A DNA stretch of 64,000 nt from Planctomycetota bacterium (GTDB lineage: Bacteria; Planctomycetota; Phycisphaerae; Sedimentisphaerales; Anaerohalosphaeraceae), in the NCBI GenBank assembly GCA_029552545.1, contig JAKPDO010000025.1, positions 43,610 to 107,609 of the forward strand, written 5' to 3'. The position numbers and the translations under genes are program-made. Below, in pieces: positions 3,046 to 28,376 of the stretch. Numbering within the stretch: the first letter of the stretch is position 1; each line of letters begins with the position of its first letter. Below the pieces are notes generated by a model. That model made no database searches, was not told the DNA's origin, and saw only the letters and a list, made by a program, of their open reading frames with translations.

Positions 3046-3084
3046 AGAAAGCGGGAAACGAAGACAGAATTGAGGTGATTGAAT

Positions 3085-3522
3085 ATGCGTCATCGGATAG
3101 CAGGAAGACAATTGGGGCGAACCAGCGAACATCGACTGGCCCTGCGTCGGAATCTGGCGGCTTCGCTGTTTGAACATGAAACGATTTCGACAACGCTGGA
3201 GAAGGCCAAAGAGGTCCGCGGATTTGCCGAGAAGCTGATTACACTGGCCAAGAAGGGCAATCTCCACGCCCGTCGGCAGGCCCTTCGGCTGCTGAACGAC
3301 CGGGCGATTTACAAAGAAGAGGACGGCCGAATGGTCAAGGTCGGCACCGTAATCGGCAAGCTTTTCAGCGACATCGGTCCCCGTTTTCTGGACCGGCCGG
3401 GCGGCTATACGCGAATCATTCGCCTGCCCAAGCACCGGCTCGGCGACAACGGGCGTCTGGTTCTGCTTCAATTGGTTGAGCAGGGCAAATCGGAACCGGA
3501 AAAGACCTCCAAGAAGTCCTAA
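3085..3522 (+). CDS. rplQ: 50S ribosomal protein L17
   Basis: The ORF-track start at 3079 is TTG; ATG 3085 gives MRHRIAGRQLGRTSEHRLALRRNL, the typical L17 N-terminus. Confidence 0.95.
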   Translation: MRHRIAGRQLGRTSEHRLALRRNLAASLFEHETISTTLEKAKEVRGFAEKLITLAKKGNLHARRQALRLLNDRAIYKEEDGRMVKVGTVIGKLFSDIGPRFLDRPGGYTRIIRLPKHRLGDNGRLVLLQLVEQGKSEPEKTSKKS

Positions 3523-3535
3523 GCGGATTTTCCAA

Positions 3536-3567
3536 AGCGGACGGCGGCACTGCGTCCGCTTTTTTTG
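3536..3567 (+). terminator. rho-independent terminator after rplQ
   Basis: Hairpin AAGCGGACG..CGTCCGCTT followed by TTTTTTT, 14 nt after the rplQ stop. Confidence 0.6.
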
Positions 3568-3590
3568 TCGGTTCAGGCGGGAGGATTCAG

Positions 3591-4007
3591 ATGGACGAAT
3601 GTGTGTTTTGCCGAATAGCCGCAGGGAAGATTCCCTCTGCGAAAATATTCGAAAACGAGGAGGTTCTGGCCTTTCTGGATATTGGTCCGGTATCGGATGG
3701 GCATACACTGGTGATCCCGAAACGTCATTACAGCCGACTGGATGAATGTCCGGCCCCGACACTTTCGAGTCTGGCAGCCGCTTTGTCCTGCACGGCCGGG
3801 GCCGTCCAAAAGGCGATGAAAGCGGATGGATACAATGTGCTGTGCAACAACGGCCGAGCGGCCGGACAGATTGTCGAGCACCTGCATTTTCATATTATCC
3901 CCAGAAAGACAGGGGATGGGCTGTTTCGGAACTGGCCGTCGTATTCCTATCCGGAAGGAAAGGCCGCTCAGATAGCCGAACAAATCCGCCGGATGCTCGA
4001 AAAATAA
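3591..4007 (+). CDS. HIT-family (histidine triad) nucleotide hydrolase
   Basis: CVFCRIAAGKIPS..., GHTLVIPKRH and the histidine-triad motif HLHFHIIP. Confidence 0.85.
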   Translation: MDECVFCRIAAGKIPSAKIFENEEVLAFLDIGPVSDGHTLVIPKRHYSRLDECPAPTLSSLAAALSCTAGAVQKAMKADGYNVLCNNGRAAGQIVEHLHFHIIPRKTGDGLFRNWPSYSYPEGKAAQIAEQIRRMLEK

Positions 4008-4063
4008 ATTGGATGAGCGGTTGCACAACGCCGGAAACTGTGGTATAGGAGATAAAATTTGAT

Positions 4064-4137
<74 letters not shown>

Positions 4138-4148
4138 GTGAAGAGCAA

Positions 4149-4177
4149 AGTCGGTCCGATAAGACCGGCTTTTTTTC
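4149..4177 (+). terminator. rho-independent terminator after tRNA-fMet
   Basis: An 8-bp stem AGTCGGTC/GACCGGCT with loop CGATAA, followed by TTTTTTT. Confidence 0.55.
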
Positions 4178-4291
4178 TTTATAAGGGATGATTTTTGAAT
4201 ATCGTATTCATGAAAGGTACACGACATTTTTATTCGGGAAATTACTTTTGAACACCGTCCTTTTATTCTATAATATTCTTCCTATTAAAAG

Positions 4292-4321
4292 TTGACATTT
4301 TTGGGGTTTCTGTGTTATAAT
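4292..4321 (+). promoter_or_regulatory. sigma70-type promoter candidate for the VTC operon
   Basis: TTGACA (4292-4297), an 18-nt spacer, then TGtTATAAT (extended -10, 4313-4321). It lies in a 330-bp AT-rich gap about 150 nt upstream of ATG 4473. Confidence 0.5.
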
Positions 4322-4472
4322 TCAGTTAGAATTAAATTAAATTATTTACAAGAGGGGCGGTTCTTCTTGCATTCGATAGGCGGGGTGCGGCAGAGACTTA
4401 GAGGGATGATGACAAAATTTGTCCGAATTTGATTTATTTTGGAAAGCAAATTATTCCGGCTGATTCGAAAAG

Positions 4473-5387
4473 ATGTTCAAAGGTTTTCTGAAAAGGAGAA
4501 AAGGGAGTTCGGGGGTTGAGCCGGTCAGGAGGAACCCTGCCAAGGGCGGGCTCACAAATGATACAGCCGAACATTCTCTTCCGACGGATTCAGAAACATT
4601 TCCAGAGCATCGGGTGATTGAGGAGGGAGCACGTGAGCCGGTTTGCCGGCAAGGAACAGATTTAACCTGCTGCCGTTATGAGCTGAAGTATCGAATTTCC
4701 GAAAGTAAGGCCCAAGCTATTCGAGATTATGTTCAGCATTATTTGTCGGTGGACAAATATGCGCTGATGTATCCGGACCGACAATATCCCATTTCAAGTC
4801 TCTACCTGGATTCACCGGATTTGTGTTTGTGCCGGGAAACTCTTACCGGCAAATCCAATCGTTTCAAACTGCGAATCCGGACTTACAGTGATTTGCCGAA
4901 AAGTCCGCTGTTTTTGGAAGTAAAGCGGCGGGTGAATAAAGTGATTGTCAAGAGCCGGGCTCGCATTGAACGGTCGGAGCTTCAGGCGGCCCTGGAGGGC
5001 ACGCTGGAGCTGCACGGACGTTCGGAGAAAGACCGCCAGGCGCTGAAGCAGTTTTTGTTTTACAAGCAGGCCCTTGGGGCCCAGCCGGTTGTGCTGGTTC
5101 GATATATGCGGGAACCTTTTGAAGGAGAAGGACAAAACCGAGTTCGGGTTACGTTTGACCGGCATCTGGAATTTCGGAAGCCCTTCGGGATGGAAGTAAC
5201 TCTGAACGGACAGGGATGGCAGGCAATTCCGCTGCCGTACGTGGTTTTGGAAATCAAGTTTACGGATCATTATCCGGCATGGCTGGAGGAGATGATTCGT
5301 CTGTTTAATCTGAATCTATCGTCAATGTCCAAGTATGTTTCGTCGGTGTCTTGCGTTTCACAGGGGCTTTTGGGATATTTGGAATGA
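4473..5387 (+). CDS. VTC-domain (polyphosphate-polymerase-like, triphosphate-tunnel fold) protein
   Basis: CCRYELKYRI.., FKLRIRTY, LFLEVKRR and VVLEIKF are alternating charged beta-strands typical of the VTC/CYTH-like tunnel family. The N-terminal ~65 aa are low-complexity. Confidence 0.85.
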   Translation: MFKGFLKRRKGSSGVEPVRRNPAKGGLTNDTAEHSLPTDSETFPEHRVIEEGAREPVCRQGTDLTCCRYELKYRISESKAQAIRDYVQHYLSVDKYALMYPDRQYPISSLYLDSPDLCLCRETLTGKSNRFKLRIRTYSDLPKSPLFLEVKRRVNKVIVKSRARIERSELQAALEGTLELHGRSEKDRQALKQFLFYKQALGAQPVVLVRYMREPFEGEGQNRVRVTFDRHLEFRKPFGMEVTLNGQGWQAIPLPYVVLEIKFTDHYPAWLEEMIRLFNLNLSSMSKYVSSVSCVSQGLLGYLE

Positions 5388-6082
5388 TGGAGAATCTGAA
5401 ACATTTGCTGAATGATTACTCCTCTCCGGCGGGAATGGATGCGGCGACGGTCGTTCTGTCTCTCCTGCTGGCCTTTGTACTCGGGCAAGTCCTGGCGTGG
5501 ATTTATTCGTTTACTCATCACGGGCTGTCGTATTCCAAATCCTTTGTGCAGTCTCTGATTGTGATTACGATGGTGGTTGCTCTTGTGATGACGACCATTG
5601 CGGGCAGTTTTGTGGTGGCGGTCGGGCTGATGGGGGCGCTTTCGATTATCCGGTTTCGAAATATGATTAAGGACACGCGGGACATTGCCTTTTTGTTCTG
5701 CGCCCTTGTGGTCGGAATGGCCTGCGGGTCGGGCCGGTATGCGATTGCCGTCATCGGCACGGCGGTCCTCGGGCTGGTCCTGCTGTATCTGTACTGGGCG
5801 GATTTCGGAGCGTTTCATTCGAGCAATGCGCTGCTTCGGTTTACCTTTCACGGGGAGCTGAACGCAGACCATCCGCTTTTTAAGGTGCTTCGGCGGTTTT
5901 GCCGAACGATTGTCCTGACATCTTCTCAAAGCCGCGGGCCGGATCGTTCCCGGATGGATTATGCATATCAGATTACTTTGCGTAAAGCGTCCCTGAATCA
6001 GCAGATGCTTTCCGAACTGCGGAAGATAGAAGGAATTGAGAATCTGAGTCTGGCGATTCAGGAGCAAATCCTTGAACTCTGA
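5384..6082 (+). CDS. DUF4956-like polytopic membrane protein
   Basis: The start ATG overlaps the VTC stop (ATGA at 5384-5387). About five hydrophobic helices, the ..LSIIRFRNMIKDTRDIAFLF.. motif remembered for DUF4956, and a soluble C-terminal ~80 aa. Confidence 0.8.
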   Translation: MMENLKHLLNDYSSPAGMDAATVVLSLLLAFVLGQVLAWIYSFTHHGLSYSKSFVQSLIVITMVVALVMTTIAGSFVVAVGLMGALSIIRFRNMIKDTRDIAFLFCALVVGMACGSGRYAIAVIGTAVLGLVLLYLYWADFGAFHSSNALLRFTFHGELNADHPLFKVLRRFCRTIVLTSSQSRGPDRSRMDYAYQITLRKASLNQQMLSELRKIEGIENLSLAIQEQILEL

Positions 6083-6086
6083 CAGG

Positions 6087-7235
6087 ATGTCATTTCAGAA
6101 AAGGACGGGACGGGTCCTGACCGGTGTGCTGCCGGTTCTGGTATGGTTGGCAGCGGTGGGGGCGGTGTGTTTTCTTTTTGTTTATCGAAATTCCCGTTTT
6201 ACGACGGTTGGAATTGCCAATGCTCAGACCTGTGTTTTTACGGCTCCTGATTCCGGGTGGCTGATTTCCATGCCGGTACACTTGTATCAGCAGGTTCATC
6301 AGGGGCAGCCGCTGGCGGTTCTGCGGCTGGTTCCGCCGACGGAAATCGAGCGGGCTCGAGCCCAGGTCGAAGCGGAAAAAGCAGCGGTTTTGGCGGAGCT
6401 GGAGTATCGGAAACTCCAGGTTGAGCAAATGCTCCGTCAGCTGGCCGGCGACCAGTCTCGAGAGCAAATGGAGCAGCTGTATCGGGAGCATCAGGTAGCT
6501 CTTGACGCAGAAAAAACCCGCTTATTGATTCTTGAAATTCAATCCCGCCTTGAGCCGGCCAGGATTCAATTGAAAGACCTTGAAACAGAGAAAAAGGTTT
6601 TGGAAAACCTGCTGGCGAAAAAGGCCATTGAGCCGTATGAACTGCAGAAGGTTTCGGTTCAGGCGGAGGCCCTTGCGGCTCAGATTGCTCAGGATGAACG
6701 GCAGCTGGTTGAGGCCAGGCAGGATTTGGAGGCGATCCAAAGTCGTCTGCAGGCCTTCCGCGCTTCTTCACGGCTTTCTTCAGAACAGATGCTTTCCCTG
6801 GAACCGCTTCAGAAGGCCATTGCGCTTCAGGAAAAACGTCTGGAGGAACTTTCGGCGATTGATTTTGATGTGGTTCTGGAAGCTCCCTTTGACGGGATTG
6901 TTGCCTCTATCGGCTGTGCCGTCGGCCAGACCGTCAGCAAGGATATGCCGATTCTTACGCTGGCGGCTCCGTCCGCCGATTTTGTGACGGCCTGGGTTCC
7001 TCAGGAGCAAAGCGGTTCCGTCACGCTGCATCAGCCGGTCGAAATCATCAAGATGTCCTCTCCTCGAAAGGTGCTGCGTTCCGAAGTGGCAGAAATGGGG
7101 CCGATGGTGGAGCTGATGCCGGAGCGATTGTGGAAAAACCCGTCGGTTCCGGAATGGGGCAGGCCTGTTCGGATTCCGGTGCATCCGGAGATGCAGCTGC
7201 TTCCGAATGAACTGGTCGGGGTTCGGGGTATTTAG
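6087..7235 (+). CDS. HlyD-family periplasmic adaptor (membrane fusion protein)
   Basis: ATG lies 4 nt after the DUF4956 stop (the ORF-track start at 6072 is TTG). N-terminal TM anchor, split lipoyl-like halves (..GQPLAVL.. / ..APFDGIVASIGCAVGQTV..) flanking a ~150-aa coiled coil, then a beta-barrel tail. Confidence 0.8.
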   Translation: MSFQKRTGRVLTGVLPVLVWLAAVGAVCFLFVYRNSRFTTVGIANAQTCVFTAPDSGWLISMPVHLYQQVHQGQPLAVLRLVPPTEIERARAQVEAEKAAVLAELEYRKLQVEQMLRQLAGDQSREQMEQLYREHQVALDAEKTRLLILEIQSRLEPARIQLKDLETEKKVLENLLAKKAIEPYELQKVSVQAEALAAQIAQDERQLVEARQDLEAIQSRLQAFRASSRLSSEQMLSLEPLQKAIALQEKRLEELSAIDFDVVLEAPFDGIVASIGCAVGQTVSKDMPILTLAAPSADFVTAWVPQEQSGSVTLHQPVEIIKMSSPRKVLRSEVAEMGPMVELMPERLWKNPSVPEWGRPVRIPVHPEMQLLPNELVGVRGI

Positions 7236-7250
7236 CCGCGGTTCTTTTGA

Positions 7251-8939
7251 ATGGATAAGGGCCTCCGAAAAGAAATGAAAAAGAGTTTGTTCCAAATTTC
7301 CGGAGGTTTTCGTTTTGTTCTCCTTCTGACCGCAGGGGTTGTAGGATGCTCTCTGAACCCGGAAAAAGTCAGCCGACAGACGGATGAGAAAGTCTATTCT
7401 CTTCTGGAGAAGCGCTGGGATGAGTCTTTCGGCCGTGCGGAGGAATATCAGATTGAGCCCTTTTCGCCGCAGATGCGTCAGGAGCGTCTGAAAGTATTAG
7501 AAGGCGGTTCTGTGCTCACACTGGCTAAGGCGGCGGAACTTGCGGTGACCAATACCCACGAATATCAGCAGGCCAAAGAGCAGCTTTATCTGACGGCGCT
7601 GGATTTACGGGATGTGCAGCATCTGTATGAGTGGACGCCGTTTGCGCGGGCAACCGGGGGATATGCCAAAGAAGGAGACCGGGATGGGGAAGGAGGACGG
7701 GAGGGGGCGGGGGCTGCGGGAGAGGGGGGAATCAGCAAACTGCTGGCAAGCGGGACTGTGGTTACGTCCGGCTTATCGGTTGGGTATATGGATGTGTTGT
7801 CGGGGGATTTCCGAAGCGGTCTGCAGACAATCTTTCAGGCGGCAATTACCCAGCCGCTTCTTCGCGGGGCGGATCGGAAGGTCGTTCTGGAGGCGCTGAC
7901 GCAGGCCGAGCAGGATACGCTGTATGCTGTTCGGGACTTCAATCGTTTTCGGCAGACCTTTCTGGTTTCCATTGTAACCGAGTATTACCGGCTGCTTCTT
8001 TATCAGATTCAGATGAAAAACAGCCGGGAGCATTATCTTCGAATGCTTTCGATTTATGACAAGATGGCTCCTCTGGTTCAGGCCGGACGTCTGCCCGCCT
8101 TCGAGCTGGAGCAGGCCCGACAGGACAAAATTCGTGCCTGGGACAGCTACCTTCAGGCCAAACAGATGTATGAGACTCATAAGGACGCCCTGAAGCTGAT
8201 GCTGAATATTCCGCAGGAGACCTCTGTAGAACCGGATGAAAACGAATGGGCGGCTCTGGAGGAAGGACTGAAGGAGCCGCCTTTGACGGAGGAACAGGCG
8301 GTCGAGGCCGCACTGGATCAGCGTCTGGATTTGGCGAATGCGTATGACCGCACCCTCGATGCCCAGCGCCATGTGGAAGTAGCGGCGGATGCCCTGAAGG
8401 CGGATTTGACCCTTGTCGGTCTGTACAGCCCTGCTAATGACGGGAATCGGCGCTATGCATTCGGGGCCGATCCGGGTGATTTGCAGCGGGTTCGCGACCG
8501 CTATGAAGCCACCCTTCGGCTGGACCTGCCGCTGGATCGGGAGATGGAGAAAAATAATTACAAACGGGCCCTGATTGCCCTGGCTCAGCAGCAGAGGAAT
8601 CATCAAAAACTGACGGACCAGATTGTGCTGGAGGTGCGCAAGGCCTATCGGGATTGCCAGAAAGCCCGGGAGCGTTATCAGGTCCAGAAAGAGGCCTGGC
8701 AGCTGGCTCGGGAGCGGCTGGACAAGACCCTCGAGCTGATGCAGGTTGCCAGGGCCAAAAGCCGGGATGTGCTGGATGCTCAAAAAGATTATTATCAGGC
8801 CCGGCAGGCCTTTGCAGAGTCTGTGTTTGACTATTCGACGGCTCTATTGGAGATGTACCGAGATACGGGGATGCTTTGGGTGAAGTCGAAGGGAAGATGG
8901 GAAATTCGAACGGCATCTTCCGGCGGTGCCGAACGGTAG
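7251..8939 (+). CDS. TolC-family outer-membrane channel protein
   Basis: Two repeats of the OEP helical pattern (AELAVTNTHEYQQAKEQLYLTALDL.. and ..LDLANAYDRTLDAQRHVEVAAD..). A possible lipoprotein signal (LLLTAGVVGCS) appears if the start is ATG 7275. Contains a Gly/Glu-rich insert. Confidence 0.85.
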   Translation: MDKGLRKEMKKSLFQISGGFRFVLLLTAGVVGCSLNPEKVSRQTDEKVYSLLEKRWDESFGRAEEYQIEPFSPQMRQERLKVLEGGSVLTLAKAAELAVTNTHEYQQAKEQLYLTALDLRDVQHLYEWTPFARATGGYAKEGDRDGEGGREGAGAAGEGGISKLLASGTVVTSGLSVGYMDVLSGDFRSGLQTIFQAAITQPLLRGADRKVVLEALTQAEQDTLYAVRDFNRFRQTFLVSIVTEYYRLLLYQIQMKNSREHYLRMLSIYDKMAPLVQAGRLPAFELEQARQDKIRAWDSYLQAKQMYETHKDALKLMLNIPQETSVEPDENEWAALEEGLKEPPLTEEQAVEAALDQRLDLANAYDRTLDAQRHVEVAADALKADLTLVGLYSPANDGNRRYAFGADPGDLQRVRDRYEATLRLDLPLDREMEKNNYKRALIALAQQQRNHQKLTDQIVLEVRKAYRDCQKARERYQVQKEAWQLARERLDKTLELMQVARAKSRDVLDAQKDYYQARQAFAESVFDYSTALLEMYRDTGMLWVKSKGRWEIRTASSGGAER

Positions 8940-8968
8940 CCGGAACAGAAGGAGAGAAAGGCGGAGGC

Positions 8969-11900
8969 GTGAAAATCAAATTGTGGTGGCTGATGCTGGC
9001 GGTTTTTTCTCTGAGCCGGGCGGATACAACGTATCCAATCGGCGACCTCAATCAGGACCGCCGGGTAGACCTGGCTGACCTGGCGATTCTGGGGGAGCAT
9101 TGGCTGGAGGATGTTGGCTGTTCAGGGATTTATTGTGCAGAGATTGACAGTCTTTCCGGAGTCACGCTGTCTGATTTCTTTCTGATGGCTTCCAACTGGC
9201 TGGCGGATGAGAGTCGTCCTTTGTTGTTTATCAATGAGTTTGCGGCCTCCAATACCAGCGAAAGCGGCATAGCGGATCCTCAGGGGGAGTTTGACGACTG
9301 GATTGAGATTTATAATGCCGGTGATACAGCCGTTGATACGGCGGGGATGTATCTGACGGATGATTTAGGCAGTCCGACAGCTTGGCGGTTTCCGGAGGGC
9401 AGACCTGCAGAGACCACGATTCCGCCTCACGGTTATTTGATTGTCTGGGCGGATGGGGATGTGAAAGACACCCCCGGCCTGCACGCATCTTTCAGTCTCC
9501 GCGCGGATGGAGAGGAAATCGGGTTGTATGATGGGAACGGCCGGCGGATTGATTCGCTGTCCTTTTCCAGTCAGCAAGCCAATCATTCGTACGGCCGATG
9601 GCCTGACGGCGGGTCGGAGTGGAGATTTTTTTCTGTTCCGACCCCGGGTGCGGTGAACAACGGGGGGTATCTGGGGCTTGTGGAGGATACTCAATTCAGT
9701 CACAAGCGGGGGTTTTATGATGCCCCGTTCAGTTTAACCTTAAGCTGTGATACGCCCGGGGCGGCGATTTATTATACGACTAACGGCAGTGCTCCGATTG
9801 AGAACGAAGTTCCGACGGCGGCGGCTGTGCGGTACACAGGTCCGATTTCCATTTCCTCTACCGCCTGTATCCGTGCAGCGGCGATAAAAACCGGCTGGAA
9901 GCCGAGCAATATTGATACTCAAACCTATATTTTTGGGGCTTCCGCCGCGGTGCGTTCGATGCCGCTGATTTCCATCGTCGGGGACCCGCAAAAGTCGCTT
10001 TATGAACCGGACGGTGTGATGGCCATTGTCGGCGGTTATTATGACAGCAGCGGCGTCTGGCAGTCCAGCGGTGCCGGCAGCTACAACAATCCGCTGCAGC
10101 GTGGGCGCAATTATGAGCGTCTGGTTTCATTTGAATATATGGATTTGGAGACCGGAGCGGCCTTTCAGCAGGATTGCGGCATCCGGGTTCACGGCAGTGA
10201 TTATACGAGGCCGCGGTACACGCGCGGGGCGGATTGGGTGACGTGCTGGAATGGTTGGCCGAACTGGAACAGCAACAAGTTCAGTCTGAATCTCTGGTTT
10301 CGGGATGAATATGAAGGGGGACGTCTGGACTATCCGCTGTTTCCGTTTATTGAGGCTGATTCGTTTGAGAGCATCGTCCTGCGGGCCGGCCATAATGACG
10401 CCTGCACACCGTTTGTGAAGGATGAGTGGGCCCGACGGCTCTTCTGCCAGATGGGGCATGCCCAGGTAACCGGTATTTTTGTGAATCTGTATATCAATGG
10501 GGTTTACCGCGGCTATTACAATCCGACGGCTCGGGGGGATAAGGAGTTTTATCAGGAGTGGTATGACACGGAGGATGAGTTTGATGTGATTACGCAGGCG
10601 GGTGTGAGGGACGGAGACGATCTCGCCTGGAACGCTCTGCTCAGTTATGCCAACAGCCGCAATCTGAGCAATATGGCGGATTATGAGTATGTAGCGAGCC
10701 GGCTGGACATTCCCGCCTTCATTGACCTGCTGATTCTTCAGAATTACATCGGCAATTTTGACTGGCCCGGCAATAACTGGGATGTGCACCGGCGAAGGAC
10801 TCCGGACGGAAAATTTGCCTTCAGCATCTGGGATGCGGAAGGGCTCGCGGAGAATTGGGCTTTCGGGGATAACGGGGAAAATCTGTATAAAAATTCTTTT
10901 GAGCATTTTCCCAGCTGGACTTCTCCGACCGGCCTGAATAATCTGTCCTGGTGTCCGATTGCTCAGCTGTACCGGGCCCTGCGGAACAATCCGGAGTTTC
11001 GGCTGGCCTTTGCAGATCGTGTGCACCGTCATTTTCGCAACGGAGGAGTTCTGACTCAGGCCAATCTCCTATCGAAGTGGTGGGAGGTCTTCGGTGAGGT
11101 ATCCGCCGTGCTGCCGGAAAAAACGGCTTTCCCGGTCCGCTACGTGCCGGATGTTTTTATCCCCAGGCGTGAACCGTATGTGCTGACGTCGTTTGCGAAT
11201 AATAATCTGTTCGATACGAGTTTCGGCTATCCGATCTTCCAAATCAACGGGGTTTATCAGCACGGCGGGCATGCGGCTTCGGGTTCGATTCTGACGATAA
11301 TCCAGTCCACCCCTTCGGGCACTCTGTATTATACGATGGACGGGACAGACCCTCGCAGGCCTGCTTCCACCCAACTGGTTGCGCAGGGATTTGTCGTGTC
11401 CGACAGCGCCCCCAAGAAAGTGCTGGTACCCACAGGAGATATCGGGACGGCCTGGCGGGGCAGCAGCGAACCATTCAACGATACCGGCTGGACCGGCGGT
11501 ACGGGCGGGGTGGGATACGAACGGCAGACCGGCTATGAGAGTATGATTGGGATTGATGTCGGGGCGGCGATGTATAACAAGAATGCAACCTGTTATATCC
11601 GGATTCCGTTCACTGTGGACGGTGCTGCTCTGCCGTATTATACCACGCTGACGCTGCGCGTCCGCTATGATGATGGATTTGTCGCTTTTTTAAACGGCAC
11701 GGAAGTCAAGCGGATGAATGCTCCTGCTTCCCTGATCTGGAACTCGGCGGCCACCGCCAATCGAGAGGCGTCCTCCGCGTGGGATTCCTTTGATATTTCC
11801 GCGTATAAAAGCGTGCTGCGGGCCGGGACGAATATTCTGGCCATTCACGGCCTGAATGTAAGCACTACCAGTTCTGATTTTCTGATTTCGGCGGAATTGG

Positions 11901-13552
11901 AAGCGCCTTCCGTTTATACAACCGTTCCGGCGGGCATTTCTCCGACGGCGATTGCCTATACCGGCGGGATTCCCCTGACGGCCAGCGCTCAGGTCAAGGC
12001 GCGAATCCGGAGCAGCACAGGCCAGTGGAGTGTACTGAATGAAGCCGTTTATGCCGTCGGACCGGTAGCGGGAAATCTGCGGATTGCAGAATTGATGTAT
12101 CACCCCATTGACCCCAATGAGGAATTTATCGAACTGGTCAATATCGGTTCGGAAGCAATCAATTTGAATCTGGTTCGGTTTACAAAAGGGATTTCTTTTA
12201 CCTTCGGGTCTCAGACTCTTGCCGCCGGTGAGCGGATTGTGGTGGTCGGCAATCAGGCGGCTTTTCTCCAGCGGTATCCTTCCTTCAGCGGACGAATAGC
12301 GGGGGAATACACGGGCCGACTGGATGATGCCGGAGAAACCATCAGACTGGAAGATGCCGTAGGCACGGTTATTCAGGAGTTTTCATATAAAGACGGATGG
12401 TATCCGATTACGGACGGGGAGGGATTTTCCCTAACAGTCCGCAATCCCGCTCAGACCGATTTGGGGATGTGGAGCCGGAAAGAAGGTTGGCGTCCCAGTG
12501 CATTGGCCGGAGGTTCGCCGGGAACGGATGATTCAGGGTTGGTGCCGGACCCGGGGGCGATTGTAATCAACGAACTGCTGGCCCATTCTCACAGCGGACA
12601 GCCGGACTGGATTGAATTGTACAATACGACATCGCAGCCGATTGCCATCGGCGGGTGGTTTCTCAGCGATGCCGCCGGAGACGAGGCCAGTATTAAGAAA
12701 TATGAAATTCCGCTTGGGACTATAATTCCGGCGGGGGGATATGTTGTCTTTTATGAAGATCAGCATTTCGGGAATCCCTCTGCTCCCGGGGTTCATATTC
12801 CTTTTGCCCTGAGTGAAGGCGGAGAGACGGCCTATCTGCGGAGCGGAGTGGGCGGTGTTCCCGGCGGATACGAGGTTTCGCAGAGTTTCGGGGCTTCGAA
12901 CACGGGGATTTCTTTTGGGCGCTATGCAAAAAGTGCGATGGACGGGGGAATTGTTTTTACGGCGATGAGCAGTCCGACGCCGGGGGCCGCCAATGCGTAT
13001 CCGCTGGTCGGTCCTGTTGTGATTTCAGAGATTCAGTACCATCCGTCCGCCGCCAATACAGGCGGGGAGTATCTGGAGCTTCGCAATATCAGTTCGCAGC
13101 CGGTTGTTTTGCAGGATGAGGTCTCGACCGAAATTTCCCCCGGCAATTTCATCACTGAGTTGATTCCGTGGCGGTTTGATAAAGGAATCGATTTTGTCTT
13201 TCCGTCCGGCACGACAATTCCCGCCGGCGGAATTCTGATTGTGGCGGAAAATCCGACTGCCTTTGCGGCTTATTACGGTTCGATGCCTTCGGGGGTACAG
13301 GTTTTCGGGCCGTTTGCGAATGGAACAAAACTGGATAATGGGGGTGAGACAGTTCGTCTGGCCCGGCCGGGGGACCAGGAGTATGGGGTAGAGCGTTTCT
13401 GGATTTCTGCGGAAGAGATTTCGTATGATGATGTCTCTCCCTGGCCGACTAGTGCGGACGGCGGCGGCTATTCCCTGCACCGGATTCATCCCTCCCAGTA
13501 CGGGGATGACGTTATCAACTGGCAGGCCGGATTGCCCGCTCCCGGCAATTAA
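8969..13552 (+). CDS. giant secreted CotH-kinase-family / lamin-tail-domain (LTD) multidomain protein (1527 aa)
   Basis: A GTG start follows GGAGAGAAAGGCGGAGG and gives the signal peptide VKIKLWWLMLAVFSLSRA; ORF-track residues 1-31 overlap tolC and were rejected. Domain order: dockerin-like module, LTD (FINEF..DWIEIYN), chitobiase-C-like (AIYYTTNGSAP), CotH-like core (~9953-10975: VNLYINGVYRGYYN.., NYIGNFDWPGNNWD, FSIWDAEG), a beta-sandwich, then three more LTDs. Confidence 0.85.
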   Translation: MKIKLWWLMLAVFSLSRADTTYPIGDLNQDRRVDLADLAILGEHWLEDVGCSGIYCAEIDSLSGVTLSDFFLMASNWLADESRPLLFINEFAASNTSESGIADPQGEFDDWIEIYNAGDTAVDTAGMYLTDDLGSPTAWRFPEGRPAETTIPPHGYLIVWADGDVKDTPGLHASFSLRADGEEIGLYDGNGRRIDSLSFSSQQANHSYGRWPDGGSEWRFFSVPTPGAVNNGGYLGLVEDTQFSHKRGFYDAPFSLTLSCDTPGAAIYYTTNGSAPIENEVPTAAAVRYTGPISISSTACIRAAAIKTGWKPSNIDTQTYIFGASAAVRSMPLISIVGDPQKSLYEPDGVMAIVGGYYDSSGVWQSSGAGSYNNPLQRGRNYERLVSFEYMDLETGAAFQQDCGIRVHGSDYTRPRYTRGADWVTCWNGWPNWNSNKFSLNLWFRDEYEGGRLDYPLFPFIEADSFESIVLRAGHNDACTPFVKDEWARRLFCQMGHAQVTGIFVNLYINGVYRGYYNPTARGDKEFYQEWYDTEDEFDVITQAGVRDGDDLAWNALLSYANSRNLSNMADYEYVASRLDIPAFIDLLILQNYIGNFDWPGNNWDVHRRRTPDGKFAFSIWDAEGLAENWAFGDNGENLYKNSFEHFPSWTSPTGLNNLSWCPIAQLYRALRNNPEFRLAFADRVHRHFRNGGVLTQANLLSKWWEVFGEVSAVLPEKTAFPVRYVPDVFIPRREPYVLTSFANNNLFDTSFGYPIFQINGVYQHGGHAASGSILTIIQSTPSGTLYYTMDGTDPRRPASTQLVAQGFVVSDSAPKKVLVPTGDIGTAWRGSSEPFNDTGWTGGTGGVGYERQTGYESMIGIDVGAAMYNKNATCYIRIPFTVDGAALPYYTTLTLRVRYDDGFVAFLNGTEVKRMNAPASLIWNSAATANREASSAWDSFDISAYKSVLRAGTNILAIHGLNVSTTSSDFLISAELEAPSVYTTVPAGISPTAIAYTGGIPLTASAQVKARIRSSTGQWSVLNEAVYAVGPVAGNLRIAELMYHPIDPNEEFIELVNIGSEAINLNLVRFTKGISFTFGSQTLAAGERIVVVGNQAAFLQRYPSFSGRIAGEYTGRLDDAGETIRLEDAVGTVIQEFSYKDGWYPITDGEGFSLTVRNPAQTDLGMWSRKEGWRPSALAGGSPGTDDSGLVPDPGAIVINELLAHSHSGQPDWIELYNTTSQPIAIGGWFLSDAAGDEASIKKYEIPLGTIIPAGGYVVFYEDQHFGNPSAPGVHIPFALSEGGETAYLRSGVGGVPGGYEVSQSFGASNTGISFGRYAKSAMDGGIVFTAMSSPTPGAANAYPLVGPVVISEIQYHPSAANTGGEYLELRNISSQPVVLQDEVSTEISPGNFITELIPWRFDKGIDFVFPSGTTIPAGGILIVAENPTAFAAYYGSMPSGVQVFGPFANGTKLDNGGETVRLARPGDQEYGVERFWISAEEISYDDVSPWPTSADGGGYSLHRIHPSQYGDDVINWQAGLPAPGN
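9044..9202 (+). other. dockerin-like two-segment module with Cys-containing linker (N-terminus of protein 8969..13552)
   Basis: DLNQDRRVDLADLAILGEHWLEDVGCSGIYCAEIDSLSGVTLSDFFLMASNWL: EF-hand-like D-x-N-x-D loops plus helix-W, with CSG.YC between the halves. Confidence 0.5.
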
Positions 13553-13558
13553 GCTGCT

Positions 13559-16500
13559 TTAGAAGCCGGGAGTCGGGGCGGCAGCCGTCCAGTTTGTCGG
13601 GTCGTCGCCTGACTTTGACGAATTGGAAGGATACAATCGAGTCAAGGAGTATCCTAAGCCGTCGGCACCCGCCGGCCATGGGGTATAATCGCTGTAGGTG
13701 ACCTGATCCATCACAACCCAGGAAATTGCCGACGGATCGCCGGGAATATCGGACGCCTGCGGTTTTTCGAGGGCCAGTCGCTCGCCTCCGTTGGACAGGC
13801 TGCCGCTCCAGGGACCGAAGACATTTACGCCGGGTGTCAGGGAGCTGTTGTAATAAGCATTGAAGGCGTTCAGCCGTCCGGATTCGAGCACCGGGTCGAA
13901 GGGGACGATGACTATTTTGGCCCCCGGGGCCAGAGACAGTCCGGACGGGAAGGGAAACGAAACCGCATTGTCCAGCCGCCAATTGCCGGAGCCGTCGGGA
14001 CTGGTTAGGGAAACACTCGAGCCGGTTGGGTTGAACAGTTCAATGTATTCTTCCGCGCCGACTGCATTCAACGGATTGTACATCAGTTCAGAAATAACGA
14101 TGCCTGCCAGGGGAACAGCGTTGGATGTGCCTCGTGTGCCGGTCATTCGGAACCAGTAGGCACCCCCGTTCGGATACCGTCCCATTGAGATGCCGTTTTC
14201 CTGTCCTTTGAAGCGGATGCAGTCTACGATTCGGTCCGTGCCTGCGGTTCCCGGCAGATAGGAGAGAAAGATTGTCTCGCCCACTTTGTCGAGGCCGAAT
14301 CCGCTGGTCAGGGGATTGTGAAAACCGGAGATTTCATCAAAACTGACAAAACCGGATGCCGGAACAGTTATGGATGGAATCGCCCATTTTTTCAGGTTGG
14401 TGATGTCATCGCTCAAATACCAGTTTCCGTCCAGTGCAATGGGGGATGCAGTGGGATTGTATAATTCAATCCAGTCGTTGCTGTCATAGCCCGGATACAT
14501 CGGGTCGCTGAAATCGGTATGAGCCATAAACTCGTTTAGGACGATTGACGCGGTCGGTGTCGGGTCTGCTGCGCCGGGCGAGCCGCCGATATAAGCACTC
14601 TGACGCCAGCTGGTGCCGTAGTCGAGGATTCCGGCCTGCTGGTCTTCCATGGTCCACCAGCCGACCGGCACAAGGGAATGCCCGCCGCCGTCCGCGGCCT
14701 GGGGCCAGCCGAATCCGTCATTGTAGGTGAAGGAAACAATCATCCCATTCCAGGTATCGGAGATGTCGATGGTCTCTCCGTCATTATTCAGTTTTCCGGA
14801 ATACTGTCCGGCTATTTTTGAAGACAGGCCGGGATATCGCAGGTTGAAGGCCGTCGGATTGCGGACAATCAGAACGAAGTCGCCGGGGGCCAGGGTTGTG
14901 ACGGAAGCACCGGCAAAGGAGAAGGTGATTCCGTTGCTGATGGAAACGGTGCTTAAGTCCAGCGTTTTGCTGGTACTGGTGTTGGTCAGCTCGAGAAATT
15001 CAAACTCTTCTTTGTCGTAGCGGCCGAGGGGGTCCGGGGCCGGGTTATACATCAGTTCGCTGACGCGAAGATAATTCAGCAGGTCGGCTCCAATGGCCTC
15101 TCCGGCGGTAAATTCAATCGGTTCGGACCAGTGGCTCCAGCGACCGGTGTTGTCTTTCATCCGGCAGCGGACTCGGTAGGTGCGGCCTGTCCGGACAACC
15201 GAGCCCGGAATTTGGATGGTTCGATTGGCCGGGTCGGTGATTTCATCGCTCATCCAGGTCGGCTGGATTTCGTATTTATTTGACTCGGAAGCCAGACCAG
15301 CTTTGACCGGCTCTGTGGTTTGGGCGATGAGGGCGACATCGACGGAGAAATCACTGCTGGTTGTCGATGCCTGAAGAGCGTGAACGGCAATCACGTTGTC
15401 GCCGGTTGTCAGATAATCATAAGGTCCTGACAGGACAATCTCATCGTAGGCGTTCGCATTGTCTGCCTCGTGATTCGTTGTGCCTGTCAGACTGTTGTAG
15501 TATTTGTCCCCGGCGGTGCAGTACAGACGGGCGACTTCGACACCGTTAATCCAGATAATGCAGCCGTCATCGATACGGACGCGGAGTTTCAAAGACTGAA
15601 TTAAGTTTTTGTTGGGCACTTCAAATTTCTTGCGGAGATAGACGGTGTAATAGCTGTTTTTCATATCCGACAGGGTGGTATTAAGGTCGCTGTCTCCGTA
15701 GCCGAGAGCGGTCTGGCCGAGCAGCCATTCCTGATCATTGAAGGAAAGCTGCCTCCATTCTCCAAAAACACTGGAGGGCTCTCGAGTGCCCTTGAAGTAC
15801 CGCCACTGGCTTGCAGGGGCAACGAGGGCCAGTTCCGTTGTTGTGGGAGGCAGCGAGAAATTGAGGCGATGTTCTGCAATCCGCCACTGGATAGCTCCGA
15901 AGGTATTGCTGCCCTGCGGGTCATTGAATGCACTGGTCTGGAACCGCAGGTCGTTGACGGGATACCCGGCGGTGCCGATGTAGGAAATCGTCGGGGTATA
16001 AGGAATGGATGTGGAGTCGCCTTCGGCCCCGGCCAATGCCTCGAGGTTGGCTACCGTGCCCGGCCAGGAAGGATCGCCAAACCACGGGTCGCCTGTCCAG
16101 CTTCCGCCCTGCCAGGCGAATTTTTTCAAATCCGCCACTACATTGCTCAGCGGGCCGTCGTCCCGGGCGCCCTCTGCAAGCGGATTCAAACGCCATCGGT
16201 CACGGTCTGCCGGCACCAGTTCGGAGATATGATAGGCCAGTTCATCAATCATTCCGTTGATGATTTCCGGCTTCCAGTGCAAATCGAGGAACTCACGGAT
16301 AAAGTTGCGGTAGGCCTGTTTGATGGGGGCTTTGGCCGACTGGATGGTCATCTGGACCGGCTGCCCTTCTGTGACATAATATTGGTCAAAAATGGCCGCC
16401 GCTCCGTGGTCGATTCCCTGATTGAAGAAGGGTCCCCATGTGTCATCCACATCAAACGGCAGAATCCACAGACGGCCCCAGTACTGATTTTCCGGCTTAT

Positions 16501-19858: not shown

Positions 19859-20098
19859 AAAACCTCCGTTTTTAAGTAATTATCCCTTTTTTTCTCAACT
19901 TATGGGGTTCATCGGAAAAACAAATGTCTCTGTTTACGATAAAATAAATCCCCATTCAGAATTGTTCTTTTTCGTCCTATAAAATTATACCTTTTTTTAA
20001 GAAGGAATGAAAGGGAAAAATCCTTCACTGGCTTTTCTGCTGTTTTTGAATACAATGGGTCTTTTTGAAAGGAAGTAAGGGTTTTTGTGAGGGAAAGG

Positions 20099-26207: not shown

Positions 26208-26276
26208 AACCAACCTCCAAAAAGATTTCGTTTTTTCTTACGAACGGTTTCCTTTCACACACTCCACACACAAACC

Positions 26277-26311
26277 TTCTCAGGGCAGGTCTTTCCGGCC
26301 TGCCCTGAGAA
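26277..26311 (-). terminator. perfect 13-bp GC-rich intercistronic hairpin (attenuator or RNA-stability element)
   Basis: TTCTCAGGGCAGG-9 nt-CCTGCCCTGAGAA, 15 nt downstream of the stop at 26326 on the minus strand. Only a weak U-tract follows. Confidence 0.35.
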
Positions 26312-26325
26312 GAAACAGAATCATC

Positions 26326-28296: not shown

Positions 28297-28325
28297 GACT
28301 AAATCCTCCTAACAGGTGTTAATAA

Positions 28326-28353: not shown

Positions 28354-28376
28354 GACAGTACACCATTAATTATTGA

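What the first reader, a model, noticed from the sequence alone, without database searches (positions are those of the whole stretch)
4292..13552. VTC / DUF4956 / HlyD / TolC operon with no canonical inner-membrane pump, running into giant CotH proteins: a candidate trans-envelope polyphosphate (polyanion) synthesis and export machine
Seen in the sequence: five co-directional genes are packed as one unit behind an AT-rich gap that carries a near-consensus promoter (TTGACA-18-TGnTATAAT).
- A VTC-domain protein (4473-5387) with ELK, LEVKRR and LEIKF strands.
- A DUF4956-like membrane protein with about five helices. Its ATG overlaps the VTC stop (ATGA at 5384-5387).
- An HlyD-type adaptor starting 4 nt later.
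- A TolC-type duct 15 nt after that.
- A 1527-aa secreted CotH/LTD protein 29 nt later.
No ABC, RND or MFS gene occurs anywhere in the unit.

Established knowledge: the VTC domain is the catalytic polyphosphate polymerase of eukaryotic Vtc4, where synthesis is coupled to threading the chain through a membrane channel. HlyD/TolC pairs need an inner-membrane partner. CotH is an atypical protein-kinase fold.

Inference: VTC plus DUF4956 is that inner-membrane partner. It would be a split bacterial analogue of the VTC complex, docked to a tripartite duct so that polyphosphate or another polyanion is made and extruded across both membranes. The adjacent CotH giants would be extracellular users, for example of a phosphodonor, a scaffold or a cation-binding matrix.

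From memory, VTC/DUF4956/CotH neighbourhoods recur in annotated genomes without an assigned function. The HlyD/TolC pair would then be the diderm adaptation. I cannot confirm novelty without a search.
Basis: partly seen in the sequence, partly recalled or inferred. Interest (0 to 1): 0.85.

Follow-up and report, generated by a model that had tools for sequence, protein, structure and literature searches.

The report
Candidate polyphosphate-making, envelope-spanning export machine
A tightly packed, widely conserved gene set in a planctomycete joins a polyphosphate-polymerase-like enzyme and a small membrane protein to the periplasmic adaptor and outer-membrane duct of an efflux pump that has no ordinary pump; it probably makes a phosphate polymer and pushes it out of the cell, which has not been described or tested.

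Summary
A perfect sigma-70 promoter precedes five co-directional genes: VTC, DUF4956, a HlyD/EmrA-like adaptor (MFP), a TolC-like lipoprotein and a 1527-aa secreted CotH/LTD protein. A second CotH giant lies convergent to them. No ABC, RND or MFS gene occurs in the 64-kb window.

The unit is not a chance adjacency.
- All 77 related loci with enough sequence after DUF4956 show VTC-DUF4956-MFP in the same order.
- Of 72 loci with room after the MFP, 62 continue with the TolC-like gene, 8 carry an orphan secretin instead, and 2 have neither.
- The MFP hairpin segment length tracks which outer-membrane gene follows.
- Five of eight more distant contexts keep VTC-DUF4956-MFP. Four monoderm loci have only VTC-DUF4956.
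- The nearest non-cassette MFP sits beside an ordinary ABC pump.

The VTC protein models as a Vtc4-like tunnel, and the basic residues that could be aligned are invariant. DUF4956 is MgtC-like (5 TM helices plus an ACT domain) and is not homologous to the eukaryotic VTC membrane part.

Best reading (about 0.5): polymerase-driven synthesis and export of polyphosphate. The main rival is that DUF4956 moves another substrate, because one locus lacks VTC. CotH linkage is facultative. I found no literature on this arrangement.

The parts
4147..4172 (+). Intrinsic-terminator-like hairpin after tRNA-Met (4063-4138). It marks the upstream boundary of the unit.
   Evidence: 10-pair stem followed by a T run; tRNA-Met found.
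4292..4321 (+). Sigma-70-type promoter: TTGACA, 18 nt, TGtTATAAT (extended -10).
   Evidence: It is the only 12/12 match in 3900-20200. Both hexamers are conserved in L001, L002 and L005.
4322..4472 (+). 5' leader of about 150 nt with conserved blocks (GAGGGGCGGTT ... GTCCGAAT). Its function is unknown.
   Evidence: The blocks are conserved in 4 related genomes, and a possible long-range helix has no informative covariation. No Rfam family matches.
4473..5387 (+). VTC-domain protein (304 aa): a cytoplasmic triphosphate-tunnel enzyme of the Vtc4 polyphosphate-polymerase type. The first 65 residues are predicted disordered and vary among homologues.
   Evidence: PF09359, E 3.5e-44. AF2 model with core pLDDT about 90. 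Foldseek best hits are Vtc4 structures 3g3r/3g3q, E 8e-13, TM 0.62-0.66. Invariant basic and acidic tunnel residues. No TM segment.
5384..6082 (+). DUF4956 protein (232 aa): MgtC-like inner-membrane protein with 5 TM helices and a cytoplasmic ACT-like domain. Proposed inner-membrane conduit or dock.
   Evidence: PF16316, E 3e-14, with weak MgtC matches. AF2 helices at 20-45, 50-71, 76-91, 98-115 and 119-138, plus a beta-alpha-beta-beta-alpha-beta domain. Foldseek ACT-domain hits. Invariant loop RFRNxxKDTRD. Its start overlaps the VTC stop (ATGA).
6087..7235 (+). Membrane-anchored periplasmic adaptor (MFP, 382 aa) of a family dedicated to this cassette. Its closest solved relative is EmrA.
   Evidence: HlyD_3 and HlyD_D23; TIGR00998 EmrA is the best NCBIfam match. 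Profile versus PDB: EmrA 4tko, E 2e-14. N-terminal TM segment at 14-32. It follows DUF4956 in 77/77 loci.
7251..8939 (+). TolC-family outer-membrane factor (562 aa), a lipoprotein with lipobox VVGC.
   Evidence: OEP x2, E 9e-24; TIGR01844, E 4e-15. Signal and lipobox sequence. It follows the MFP in 62/72 loci and is replaced by a secretin in 8.
8969..13552 (+). Secreted 1527-aa CotH-kinase / LTD x4 / CHB_HEX_C_1 / Fn3_assoc protein with a dockerin-like N-terminal repeat. A facultative partner of the cassette.
   Evidence: Pfam. Sec signal peptide MKIKLWWLMLAVFSLSRA. It starts 29 nt after the OMP stop, with no terminator-like site between them.
13559..19858 (-). Second secreted giant (2099 aa): Laminin_G_3 / LTD x4 / CotH / Ig. 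It is convergent, and its stop codon lies 6 nt from that of the first giant.
   Evidence: Pfam. Signal peptide. Orthologue in the same place in L001-L005.

Best explanation
The four genes VTC, DUF4956, MFP and the outer-membrane channel encode one envelope-spanning apparatus.

Proposed mechanism:
- The soluble VTC enzyme sits on the cytoplasmic face of an oligomer of DUF4956. The likely contact surfaces are the invariant basic loop RFRNxxKDTRD and the ACT domain.
- VTC transfers the gamma-phosphate of ATP onto a growing polyphosphate chain, as yeast Vtc4 does.
- The chain is fed through DUF4956 and then through a hexamer-type EmrA-like adaptor into a TolC-like duct. In some relatives the duct is a secretin.
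- Polymerisation itself is the motor, so no ABC, RND or MFS pump is needed.
- Outside the cell, the polyanion is bound or used by secreted LTD/CotH proteins where these are present.

What is shown: the family assignments, the fold, the conserved tunnel residues, the obligatory co-linearity, the absence of a pump, and the swap of outer-membrane channel.

What is inferred: physical docking, polyphosphate as the product, the direction of transport, and any role for CotH.
For: Families and fold:
- Pfam and NCBIfam assignments.
- The VTC model's best structural matches are Vtc4 polymerase structures, E 8e-13. The next class, CYTH proteins, scores E 1e-7.
- The profile alignment puts the invariant KLRIR, LE(V/I)KRR, RYMR and RVRVTFD motifs on Vtc4 HRLRWY, VERK, FYNR and ARVRISLD.

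Synteny:
- 77/77 related loci have VTC-DUF4956-MFP. Median gaps between maximal ORFs are -8 and 7 nt.
- The flanking genes differ from locus to locus: ribosomal cluster, leuS, hyd genes, glycoside hydrolases.
- Only 2 ABC-like ORFs occur in 85 loci, both about 10 kb away, and no large membrane protein recurs.

Outer-membrane component:
- After the MFP comes a TolC-like gene in 62 loci, an orphan secretin in 8 and neither in 2. The two channel types are mutually exclusive.
- A segment of the MFP hairpin is exactly 32 aa in all 66 TolC-linked MFPs and 34-37 aa in the 11 others.
- Those 11 are not one clade in NJ trees.

Wider sample:
- Distant contexts L089, L090, L094, L096 and L097 keep VTC-DUF4956-MFP.
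- L093 has MFP-DUF4956-OEP.
- L091, the closest non-cassette MFP, lies in an OEP-MFP-ABC-ABC2 operon.
- Monoderm loci have only VTC-DUF4956.

MFP type: the closest solved relative is EmrA, whose partner, from established knowledge, has no periplasmic domain. DUF4956 likewise has none.
Against: - No bacterial VTC-domain protein has been shown to make polyphosphate in any paper I could find.
- Most TTM enzymes are hydrolases or cyclases (established knowledge).
- DUF4956 shows no structural similarity to the Vtc1/3/4 membrane channel. Its relative MgtC is known as a regulator, not a channel (PMC12345266 and my own knowledge).
- L093 has MFP-DUF4956-TolC with no VTC within 8 kb.
- L092 (an Ignavibacteriaceae MAG, a lineage I take to be diderm) has VTC-DUF4956 without an MFP, and so does L095, whose envelope type is unknown.
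- The Vtc4 K200, E426 and S457/K458 equivalents (K72, E260, S286/K287) rest on motif resemblance and on the coverage of the Pfam match. Sub-profile searches did not align them.
- The DUF4956 model is only moderate (pLDDT 70), and no multimer prediction could be run.
Confidence: 0.5

Rival explanations
1. DUF4956 is itself the transporter, MgtC-like and perhaps ion-coupled, for a substrate other than polyphosphate such as a cation, a metal-phosphate complex or a small molecule. It uses the MFP and the outer-membrane duct like any tripartite pump. The VTC protein would be an accessory: a triphosphate or polyphosphate hydrolase that energises or gates the transporter, or a maker of cytoplasmic polyphosphate that regulates it.
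For: - L093 has MFP-like, DUF4956 and OEP genes with no VTC nearby.
- DUF4956 gives weak MgtC/SapB/YhiD matches and carries an ACT domain typical of ligand-regulated proteins.
- Most TTM enzymes are hydrolases (established knowledge).
Against: - VTC is adjacent to DUF4956, with overlapping or near-overlapping reading frames, in 85/85 Planctomycete-type loci and in 4/4 monoderm loci.
- The VTC family is structurally closest to the polymerase Vtc4, not to the hydrolase TTMs.
- No TTM-powered transporter is known.
- MgtC has no demonstrated transport activity (my own knowledge).
Confidence: 0.22
2. The MFP and TolC-like genes serve the secretion or surface anchoring of the giant CotH/LTD proteins, as a type-I-like protein export route. 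VTC/DUF4956 would supply energy or a modification.
For: - In the window the first CotH gene follows the duct gene by 29 nt with no terminator between them.
- CotH giants are adjacent in 27/85 loci and in L090.
Against: - Both giants carry N-terminal Sec signal peptides, unlike type I substrates.
- There is no ABC exporter.
- About two thirds of the loci have the cassette with no CotH within 6-10 kb.
- Monoderm loci keep VTC-DUF4956 with CotH although they have no outer membrane to cross.
Confidence: 0.05
3. The MFP/TolC pair works with a conventional pump encoded elsewhere in the genome, and its position next to VTC/DUF4956 has no functional meaning.
For: TolC-type ducts and some adaptors are shared between pumps in model bacteria (established knowledge). 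Whole genomes could not be searched here.
Against: - Co-linearity holds in 77/77 loci, with MFP identity falling to 29-43% and the flanking genes changing.
- The same trio recurs at DUF4956 identity of about 33-40%.
- In known systems the adaptor gene sits beside its inner-membrane partner, as in L091.
Confidence: 0.03

Closest known systems
Eukaryotic VTC complex (Vtc4/Vtc3/Vtc1; PDB 3G3Q, 7YTJ, 8I6V)
   Same: The catalytic domain belongs to the same Pfam family and has the same tunnel fold with conserved basic residues. The proposed logic is also the same: a cytoplasmic polymerase coupled to a membrane conduit, so that synthesis drives translocation away from the cytosol.
   Different: - The bacterial enzyme has no SPX domain and no covalently attached 3-TM domain.
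- The membrane partner is a separate MgtC-like protein with 5 TM helices plus an ACT domain, with no detectable similarity to the Vtc1-type channel.
- The system continues across a periplasm and an outer membrane.
- Activity is untested.
Tripartite efflux and type I secretion systems (EmrAB-TolC, MacAB-TolC, HlyBD-TolC)
   Same: A membrane-anchored adaptor with lipoyl, beta-barrel and alpha-hairpin parts, closest to EmrA, followed by a TolC-family lipoprotein. The adaptor gene is glued to its presumed inner-membrane partner.
   Different: - The inner-membrane component is not ABC, RND or MFS.
- The adaptor family has its own C-terminal signature (W..NP..P.WG.PV.I), and Pfam often fails to detect it.
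- In 8 relatives the duct is a secretin, a pairing not known for adaptors.
CotH / VTC ('polyphosphate polymerase') / DUF4956 accessory cassette next to Gram-positive pel operons, and in C. perfringens NELoc-2
   Same: The same VTC-DUF4956 pair, often with a secreted CotH (bioRxiv 10.1101/768473; PMC12345266; PMC2879425; my loci L085-L088). Function is unknown there too. Deleting the DUF4956 and CotH genes altered Pel levels and aggregation in S. intermedius (PMC12345266).
   Different: The monoderm versions have no adaptor and no outer-membrane channel. They are often flanked by an OmpR-type two-component system. The published discussion assumed the polyphosphate stays in the cytoplasm.
Synthase-dependent exopolymer secretion (for example alginate Alg8-Alg44-AlgK-AlgE) - from my own knowledge
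   Same: Concept: a processive inner-membrane polymerase pushes its product through a periplasm-spanning scaffold and an outer-membrane pore without a separate transporter. Alg44 has an adaptor-like periplasmic domain.
   Different: There the polymerase is a glycosyltransferase, not a TTM enzyme. There is no c-di-GMP receptor here, no TPR scaffold, and a different pore type. There is no homology beyond the adaptor-like fold.
MgtC/SapB/YhiD family
   Same: Architecture of 5 TM helices plus a C-terminal ACT-like domain, with weak profile matches. JGI names the homologues 'YhiD'.
   Different: Scores are below the family cut-offs (MgtC 23.6 against 31.4 bits). DUF4956 is a separate Pfam family. 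MgtC is known as a regulator of the F1Fo ATPase and PhoR, not as part of a tripartite system.

Membership tests
VTC / Vtc4-type polyphosphate polymerase (TTM superfamily) | Match to PF09359 above the gathering score over the whole domain | tested here: met
   151.5 bits against a cut-off of 23; residues 68-294 cover profile positions 2-233 of 235.
VTC / Vtc4-type polyphosphate polymerase (TTM superfamily) | Closed beta-tunnel fold most similar to Vtc4 | tested here: met
   AF2 core pLDDT about 90. The top 13 Foldseek hits are all Vtc4/2/3 structures, E 8e-13 to 4e-9, TM up to 0.66. CYTH proteins follow at E 1e-7.
VTC / Vtc4-type polyphosphate polymerase (TTM superfamily) | Tunnel residues needed for catalysis in Vtc4: K200, R264, R266, K281, Y359, R361, R373, E426, S457, K458 (numbering from my memory of Hothorn et al. 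2009) | tested here: inconclusive
   The central residues align and are invariant: R134/R136, K151, Y211/R213 and R223/R225. K72 (YELKY), E260 (LEIKF) and S286/K287 (MSKY) are invariant and resemble the Vtc4 motifs, but the sub-profile searches did not return Vtc4.
VTC / Vtc4-type polyphosphate polymerase (TTM superfamily) | SPX domain and C-terminal 3-TM channel domain on the same polypeptide (eukaryotic VTC subunits) | tested here: not met
   The only Pfam hit is the VTC domain, and no hydrophobic segment was found.
VTC / Vtc4-type polyphosphate polymerase (TTM superfamily) | ATP-dependent polyphosphate synthesis | not testable with these tools
   This needs an enzyme assay.
Tripartite efflux / type I secretion system | Periplasmic adaptor (MFP) with lipoyl, beta-barrel and alpha-hairpin parts | tested here: met
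   HlyD_3 (50 bits) and HlyD_D23 (38.6 bits) are above their cut-offs. The profile hits EmrA, MexJ, MacA and LipC. TM anchor at 14-32.
Tripartite efflux / type I secretion system | TolC-family outer-membrane factor with two OEP repeats | tested here: met
   OEP 84.7 bits with 2 stretches. TIGR01844 scores E 4e-15 but is below its cut-off. phmmer finds no PDB hit, so the protein is divergent.
Tripartite efflux / type I secretion system | Adjacent inner-membrane transporter of the ABC, RND or MFS class | tested here: not met
   None in the window and none recurring in 85 loci.
MgtC/SapB family (for the DUF4956 protein) | Score above the family cut-off | tested here: not met
   PF02308 scores 23.6 bits against a cut-off of 31.4. 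NF007431 scores 39 bits against 214.
MgtC/SapB family (for the DUF4956 protein) | Five TM helices followed by a cytoplasmic ACT-like domain | tested here: met
   AF2 model. Foldseek ACT-domain hits at E 3e-4.
DUF4956 (PF16316) | Score above the gathering threshold | tested here: met
   53.4 bits against 30.6.
CotH kinase family (for the two giants) | PF08757 match above the cut-off | tested here: met
   59.3 and 44.3 bits against a cut-off of 23.8.
CotH kinase family (for the two giants) | Intact catalytic and metal-binding residues | tested here: inconclusive
   The G-x-N ... (W/F)-D motif region aligns with the E. faecalis and Nonomuraea CotH homologues. No solved CotH structure could be aligned.
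Synthase-dependent exopolysaccharide secretion | Processive membrane glycosyltransferase, TPR scaffold and beta-barrel porin | tested here: not met
   None of these domains occurs in the unit. The resemblance is in concept only.

The most novel reading that the evidence does not exclude
This is a new class of trans-envelope machine: a dedicated polyphosphate secretion system. A VTC-type polymerase is the motor, an MgtC-like protein is the inner-membrane pore, and a private adaptor family couples either to a TolC-like duct or to a secretin. The exported polyphosphate would serve outside the cell, for example as an ATP-independent phosphoryl donor for secreted CotH kinases or as a matrix bound by LTD domains. 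This would assign a function at once to bacterial VTC, DUF4956 and the non-spore CotH proteins.
Probability: 0.2. Interest if true: 0.95.

Novelty: new variant of a known kind. Interest (0 to 1): 0.8.

Why it matters
If the reading is right, it identifies three things at once:
- the first bacterial use of the eukaryote-type (VTC) polyphosphate polymerase;
- a function for DUF4956, a family of more than 5,000 clusters at 50% identity;
- a fourth kind of inner-membrane engine for adaptor/TolC systems, one that polymerises its own cargo.

It would also explain how bacteria could place polyphosphate outside the cell. It gives a concrete hypothesis for the puzzling CotH/VTC/DUF4956 cassettes of streptococci, clostridia and bifidobacteria that affect biofilm matrix (PMC12345266). 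The adaptor-secretin pairing seen in some relatives would be new for secretion-system biology. All of this can be tested with a four-gene expression construct.

Tried and rejected
- **Apparent VTC-DUF4956 fusion.** The 495-aa fusion gene called in L089 looked like Rosetta-stone evidence. The conserved ...S(M/I)(S/P)KYV... motif continues in another frame. It is therefore a frameshift in the assembly, and I rejected it.
- **Terminal catalytic motifs.** Sub-profile searches meant to align the N- and C-terminal motifs to Vtc4 returned nothing useful.
- **PDB searches by phmmer.** The VTC protein gave only marginal Vtc2/Vtc4 hits, DUF4956 gave nothing meaningful, and the CotH domain and the TolC-like protein gave nothing.
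- **Plasmid collection.** It gave only four monoderm hits, all unannotated. They were useful as a monoderm sample but gave no diderm comparison.
- **CotH kinase-only profile.** It undercounted CotH (20 loci). Clustering plus Pfam gave 27 loci.
- **Defence systems.** PADLOC found no match.
- **Leader RNA.** Rfam found no riboswitch, and the alignment fold had no informative covariation.
- **MFP homologue search.** The word-index search scored only 41 proteins, so I reached distant adaptors through DUF4956 representatives instead.
- **Bacteroides lead.** BT3498-99 (DUF4956 + DUF2490, PMC10434189) could not be followed because no sequence was available.

Full report
**1. What is in the window**

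The window comes from a planctomycete of the Phycisphaerae. Near-identical homologues carry the name Anaerohalosphaeraceae.

The ribosomal/rpoA cluster ends upstream of the unit (rpsD 1312-1944, rpoA 2047-3045). It is followed by tRNA-Met (4063-4138) and a strong terminator hairpin (4147-4172). Then comes an AT-rich spacer with a perfect TTGACA-18-TATAAT promoter carrying a TG extension (4292-4321). This is the only 12/12 match in 16 kb. Its hexamers are conserved in three related genomes.

- VTC, 4473-5387.
- DUF4956, 5384-6082, with an ATGA overlap onto the VTC stop.
- A HlyD/EmrA-like adaptor (MFP), 6087-7235, after a 4-nt gap.
- A TolC-family lipoprotein, 7251-8939, after a 15-nt gap.
- A 1527-aa CotH/LTD protein, 8969-13552, after a 29-nt gap.

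A second giant of 2099 aa (CotH/LTD/Laminin_G) lies convergent at 13559-19858. Both giants have Sec signal peptides. The adaptor has one N-terminal TM helix, the duct has a lipobox, and VTC has no hydrophobic segment. No ABC, RND or MFS domain occurs in any sizeable ORF of the whole 64 kb.

**2. The individual proteins**

*VTC.* It scores 151 bits on PF09359. An AlphaFold model built from 16 homologues has a confident core, with pLDDT about 90 over residues 68-290. Its 13 best matches among solved structures are all yeast Vtc4/Vtc2/Vtc3 tunnel domains (E 8e-13, TM up to 0.66), ahead of CYTH-type enzymes at E 1e-7.

A profile of the homologues aligns four motifs onto Vtc4: KLRIR, LE(V/I)KRR, RYMR and RVRVTFD fall on HRLRWY, VERK, FYNR and ARVRISLD. 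From my memory of Hothorn et al. 2009, these Vtc4 motifs carry R264/R266, K281, Y359/R361 and R373. All are invariant in the bacterial set.

The first-strand YELKY and the C-terminal LEIKF and MSKY motifs are also invariant. They look like Vtc4 TTKYW (K200), LEVK (E426) and FSKF (S457/K458), but I could not obtain a tool alignment for them. The protein has no SPX domain and no TM domain.

*DUF4956.* It models with moderate confidence (pLDDT 70) as five TM helices plus a C-terminal ACT-like domain. That is the MgtC architecture, and there are weak MgtC/SapB profile hits below the family cut-offs. It shows no similarity to the eukaryotic VTC membrane channel. It is more conserved than VTC: 56-100% identity among the top 120 homologues. 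Its cytoplasmic loop RFRNxxKDTRD is invariant.

*Adaptor (MFP).* The closest solved relative is EmrA (E 2e-14), followed by MexJ, MacA and LipC. The family has its own conserved C-terminal signature.

**3. Is the arrangement more than adjacency?**

I fetched 84 related loci. They are Planctomycetota-type MAGs plus one labelled Aegiribacteria. I classified their ORFs with iterated profiles.

- Every one of the 77 loci with at least 1.2 kb after DUF4956 has the adaptor next.
- Median gaps between maximal ORFs are -8 nt (VTC to DUF4956), 7 nt (DUF4956 to MFP) and 18 nt (MFP to OMP).
- Adaptor identity falls to 29-43% across the set.
- The flanking genes change completely: ribosomal cluster, leuS, hydrogenase maturation genes, glycoside hydrolases, squalene-hopene-cyclase-like genes.
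- Only two ABC-like ORFs occur in 85 loci, both about 10 kb away, and no large membrane protein recurs.
- The closest adaptor outside the cassette (L091) sits in a textbook OEP-MFP-ABC-ABC2 operon.

The gene next to this adaptor family is therefore always VTC/DUF4956, in the place where a pump would normally be.

**4. An unexpected result: the outer-membrane gene can be swapped**

Of 72 loci with room after the adaptor, 62 have the TolC-like gene, 8 have a secretin (Secretin, Secretin_N and usually STN; E about 1e-40), and 2 have neither.

Details of the secretin loci:
- In four of them the secretin is on the same strand directly after the adaptor. In the other four it is convergent.
- The secretins are orphans, with no type II or type IV pilus genes beside them.
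- Secretins occur next to the cassette only where the TolC-like gene is absent. The single other secretin in the data set lies 7 kb away and is more divergent.

A segment of the adaptor's alpha-hairpin is exactly 32 residues in all 66 TolC-linked adaptors. It is 34-37 residues in the 8 secretin-linked ones, in the 2 'neither' loci and in one locus cut by a contig end. In neighbour-joining trees these 11 fall into 6 (VTC), 6 (DUF4956) and 3 (MFP) separate groups. These trees have no support values, so the number of independent switches is uncertain.

Two non-homologous outer-membrane channels in the same slot, with a matching change in the adaptor hairpin, argue that the adaptor really couples the inner-membrane pair to an outer-membrane exit.

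**5. Wider distribution**

DUF4956 is a large family: 5,661 clusters at 50% identity with E <= 1e-3. I sampled eight distant contexts.

- L089, L090, L094, L096 and L097 have VTC-DUF4956-MFP with no adjacent outer-membrane gene. Their adaptors are shorter (338-402 aa), and Pfam misses most of them, but they are clear members of the cassette family (profile E 2e-39 to 5e-62).
- L093 has MFP-like, DUF4956 and OEP genes, with no VTC within 8 kb.
- L092 (Ignavibacteriaceae) has VTC-DUF4956 followed by a phytase-like propeller and no adaptor.
- L095 has CotH-VTC-DUF4956 followed by a CDP-alcohol phosphatidyltransferase and sugar-nucleotide genes.

Four monoderm loci (Paenibacillus, Acetoanaerobium, Nonomuraea, Enterococcus faecalis) have the overlapping VTC-DUF4956 pair, with no adaptor, duct or secretin. 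CotH is adjacent in two of them and an OmpR-type two-component system in three.

The samples are small, and the Ignavibacteriaceae locus L092 (a lineage I take to be diderm) lacks an adaptor.

**6. CotH**

Giant CotH/LTD proteins lie within the fetched flanks in 27 of 85 loci, upstream or downstream and on either strand. A small secreted LTD-like protein with a dockerin-like tail follows the duct in 11 further loci. CotH is thus a frequent but facultative neighbour, not part of the invariant core. I could not verify its catalytic residues against a solved structure.

**7. Mechanism**

The best-supported model is a polymerase-driven export apparatus:
- VTC, in the cytoplasm where ATP is available, docks on DUF4956.
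- The product passes through DUF4956.
- The EmrA-like adaptor bridges the periplasm to a TolC-like or secretin channel.
- No separate pump is needed, because chain growth supplies the push. This is how the eukaryotic VTC complex works, and in concept how synthase-dependent exopolysaccharide systems work (established knowledge).

I put about 0.8 on the four proteins forming one trans-envelope unit. I put about 0.5 on polyphosphate being the exported product, and about 0.2-0.3 on CotH or LTD proteins being its extracellular users.

The main rival (about 0.2) is that DUF4956 carries some other substrate and that VTC regulates or energises it. The VTC-less L093 locus and the MgtC/ACT resemblance speak for this rival. 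The universal VTC-DUF4956 coupling elsewhere, and the polymerase-like fold, speak against it. Protein secretion of the CotH giants and mere coincidence of adjacency are both unlikely (see the rivals section).

**8. Comparison with what is known, and novelty**

The CotH/VTC/DUF4956 triad has been noticed as an uncharacterised accessory cassette:
- next to Gram-positive pel operons (bioRxiv 10.1101/768473; mBio 2025, PMC12345266, where the authors suppose the polyphosphate stays cytoplasmic);
- in C. perfringens NELoc-2 (PMC2879425).

I found no paper that links VTC or DUF4956 to an adaptor, TolC or a secretin, and none that shows activity for a bacterial VTC protein. The library lacks many subscription papers, so this absence is not proof.

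The system shares parts with tripartite pumps and with the VTC complex, but it fails a defining feature of each. It has no ABC, RND or MFS transporter, and it has no VTC-type membrane domain. I rate it a new variant of known kinds, with a real chance of being a new class.

**9. Dead ends**

- An apparent VTC-DUF4956 fusion in L089 proved to be a frameshift artefact.
- PADLOC and Rfam found nothing.
- Several PDB sequence searches were empty.
- The Bacteroides BT3498-99 lead (DUF4956 + DUF2490, PMC10434189) could not be followed.

Noticed in passing
L021:3182-4846, L025:2743-4656, L028:7397-9541, L040:13232-15079 (+ strand); L046:3805-5844, L052:8370-10028, L080:12805-14544, L082:4635-6530 (- strand): In eight related loci an orphan secretin (Secretin, Secretin_N and usually STN) takes the place of the TolC-like gene directly after the adaptor. 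The adaptor hairpin segment is 2-4 residues longer in exactly these loci. An adaptor-secretin pairing is not known to me.
   Followed up: partly
L093:6847-10098: A distant locus has an MFP-like gene, DUF4956 and a TolC-family gene in a row, with no VTC gene within 8 kb. DUF4956 may therefore work with an adaptor and duct without the polymerase.
   Followed up: partly
L036:7952-9067 (representative; also L023, L029, L037, L047, L050, L058, L064, L076): A secreted protein of about 370 aa with no Pfam hit follows the TolC-like gene in 11 loci. It has an LTD-like N-terminal part and a dockerin-like C-terminal repeat shared with the CotH giants.
   Followed up: partly
L035:9517-10074 (representative, 8 loci): A second triphosphate-tunnel protein (CYTH domain, 185 aa) recurs a few kb downstream of the cassette, after leuS. 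This may be coincidence or a polyphosphate or triphosphate hydrolase partner.
   Followed up: no
window 4322-4472: The leader of about 150 nt between the promoter and the VTC start has blocks conserved in four genomes (GAGGGGCGGTT, GTCCGAAT) that could pair. No Rfam family matches and there is no informative covariation.
   Followed up: partly
L089:3716-5203: The gene call shows a 495-aa VTC-DUF4956 fusion. The conserved C-terminal VTC motif continues in another frame, so this is a frameshift in a long-read assembly, not a real fusion.
   Followed up: yes
L085, L086, L088 (monoderm loci): The VTC-DUF4956 pair is flanked by an OmpR-type response regulator and a histidine kinase in three of four monoderm loci. 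A Cthe_2159-family secreted protein (L085) or a PLD/cardiolipin-synthase-like protein (L086) follows.
   Followed up: no
L095:3579-14696: In a marine contig, CotH-VTC-DUF4956 is followed by a CDP-alcohol phosphatidyltransferase, a HAD hydrolase, a nucleotidyltransferase, epimerases and a GT2 glycosyltransferase. This suggests a link to a phosphate-containing glycopolymer.
   Followed up: no
window 1-64000: GC skew is positive in every 2-kb bin of the window (0.06-0.20), whatever the gene strand. Long antisense ORFs without any family hit lie inside real genes (for example 15869-17968 + inside the CotH giant and 2506-3762 - across rpoA; 21215-23359 - and 47287-49287 - were not scanned). They are probably a composition artefact.
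   Followed up: no
window 13552-13559: The two giant CotH genes are convergent, with their stop codons only 6 nt apart. That leaves no room for terminators between two transcripts of 4.6 and 6.3 kb.
   Followed up: no
window 25458-45013: The rest of the window holds an ECF sigma factor and a FecR-like anti-sigma pair (32967-33521, 31246-33003) next to CBM96/Laminin_G surface proteins. It also holds a rhamnogalacturonan-degradation cluster: RGL11 lyase, GH43, GH28, SASA esterase and GH106 rhamnosidase.
   Followed up: no
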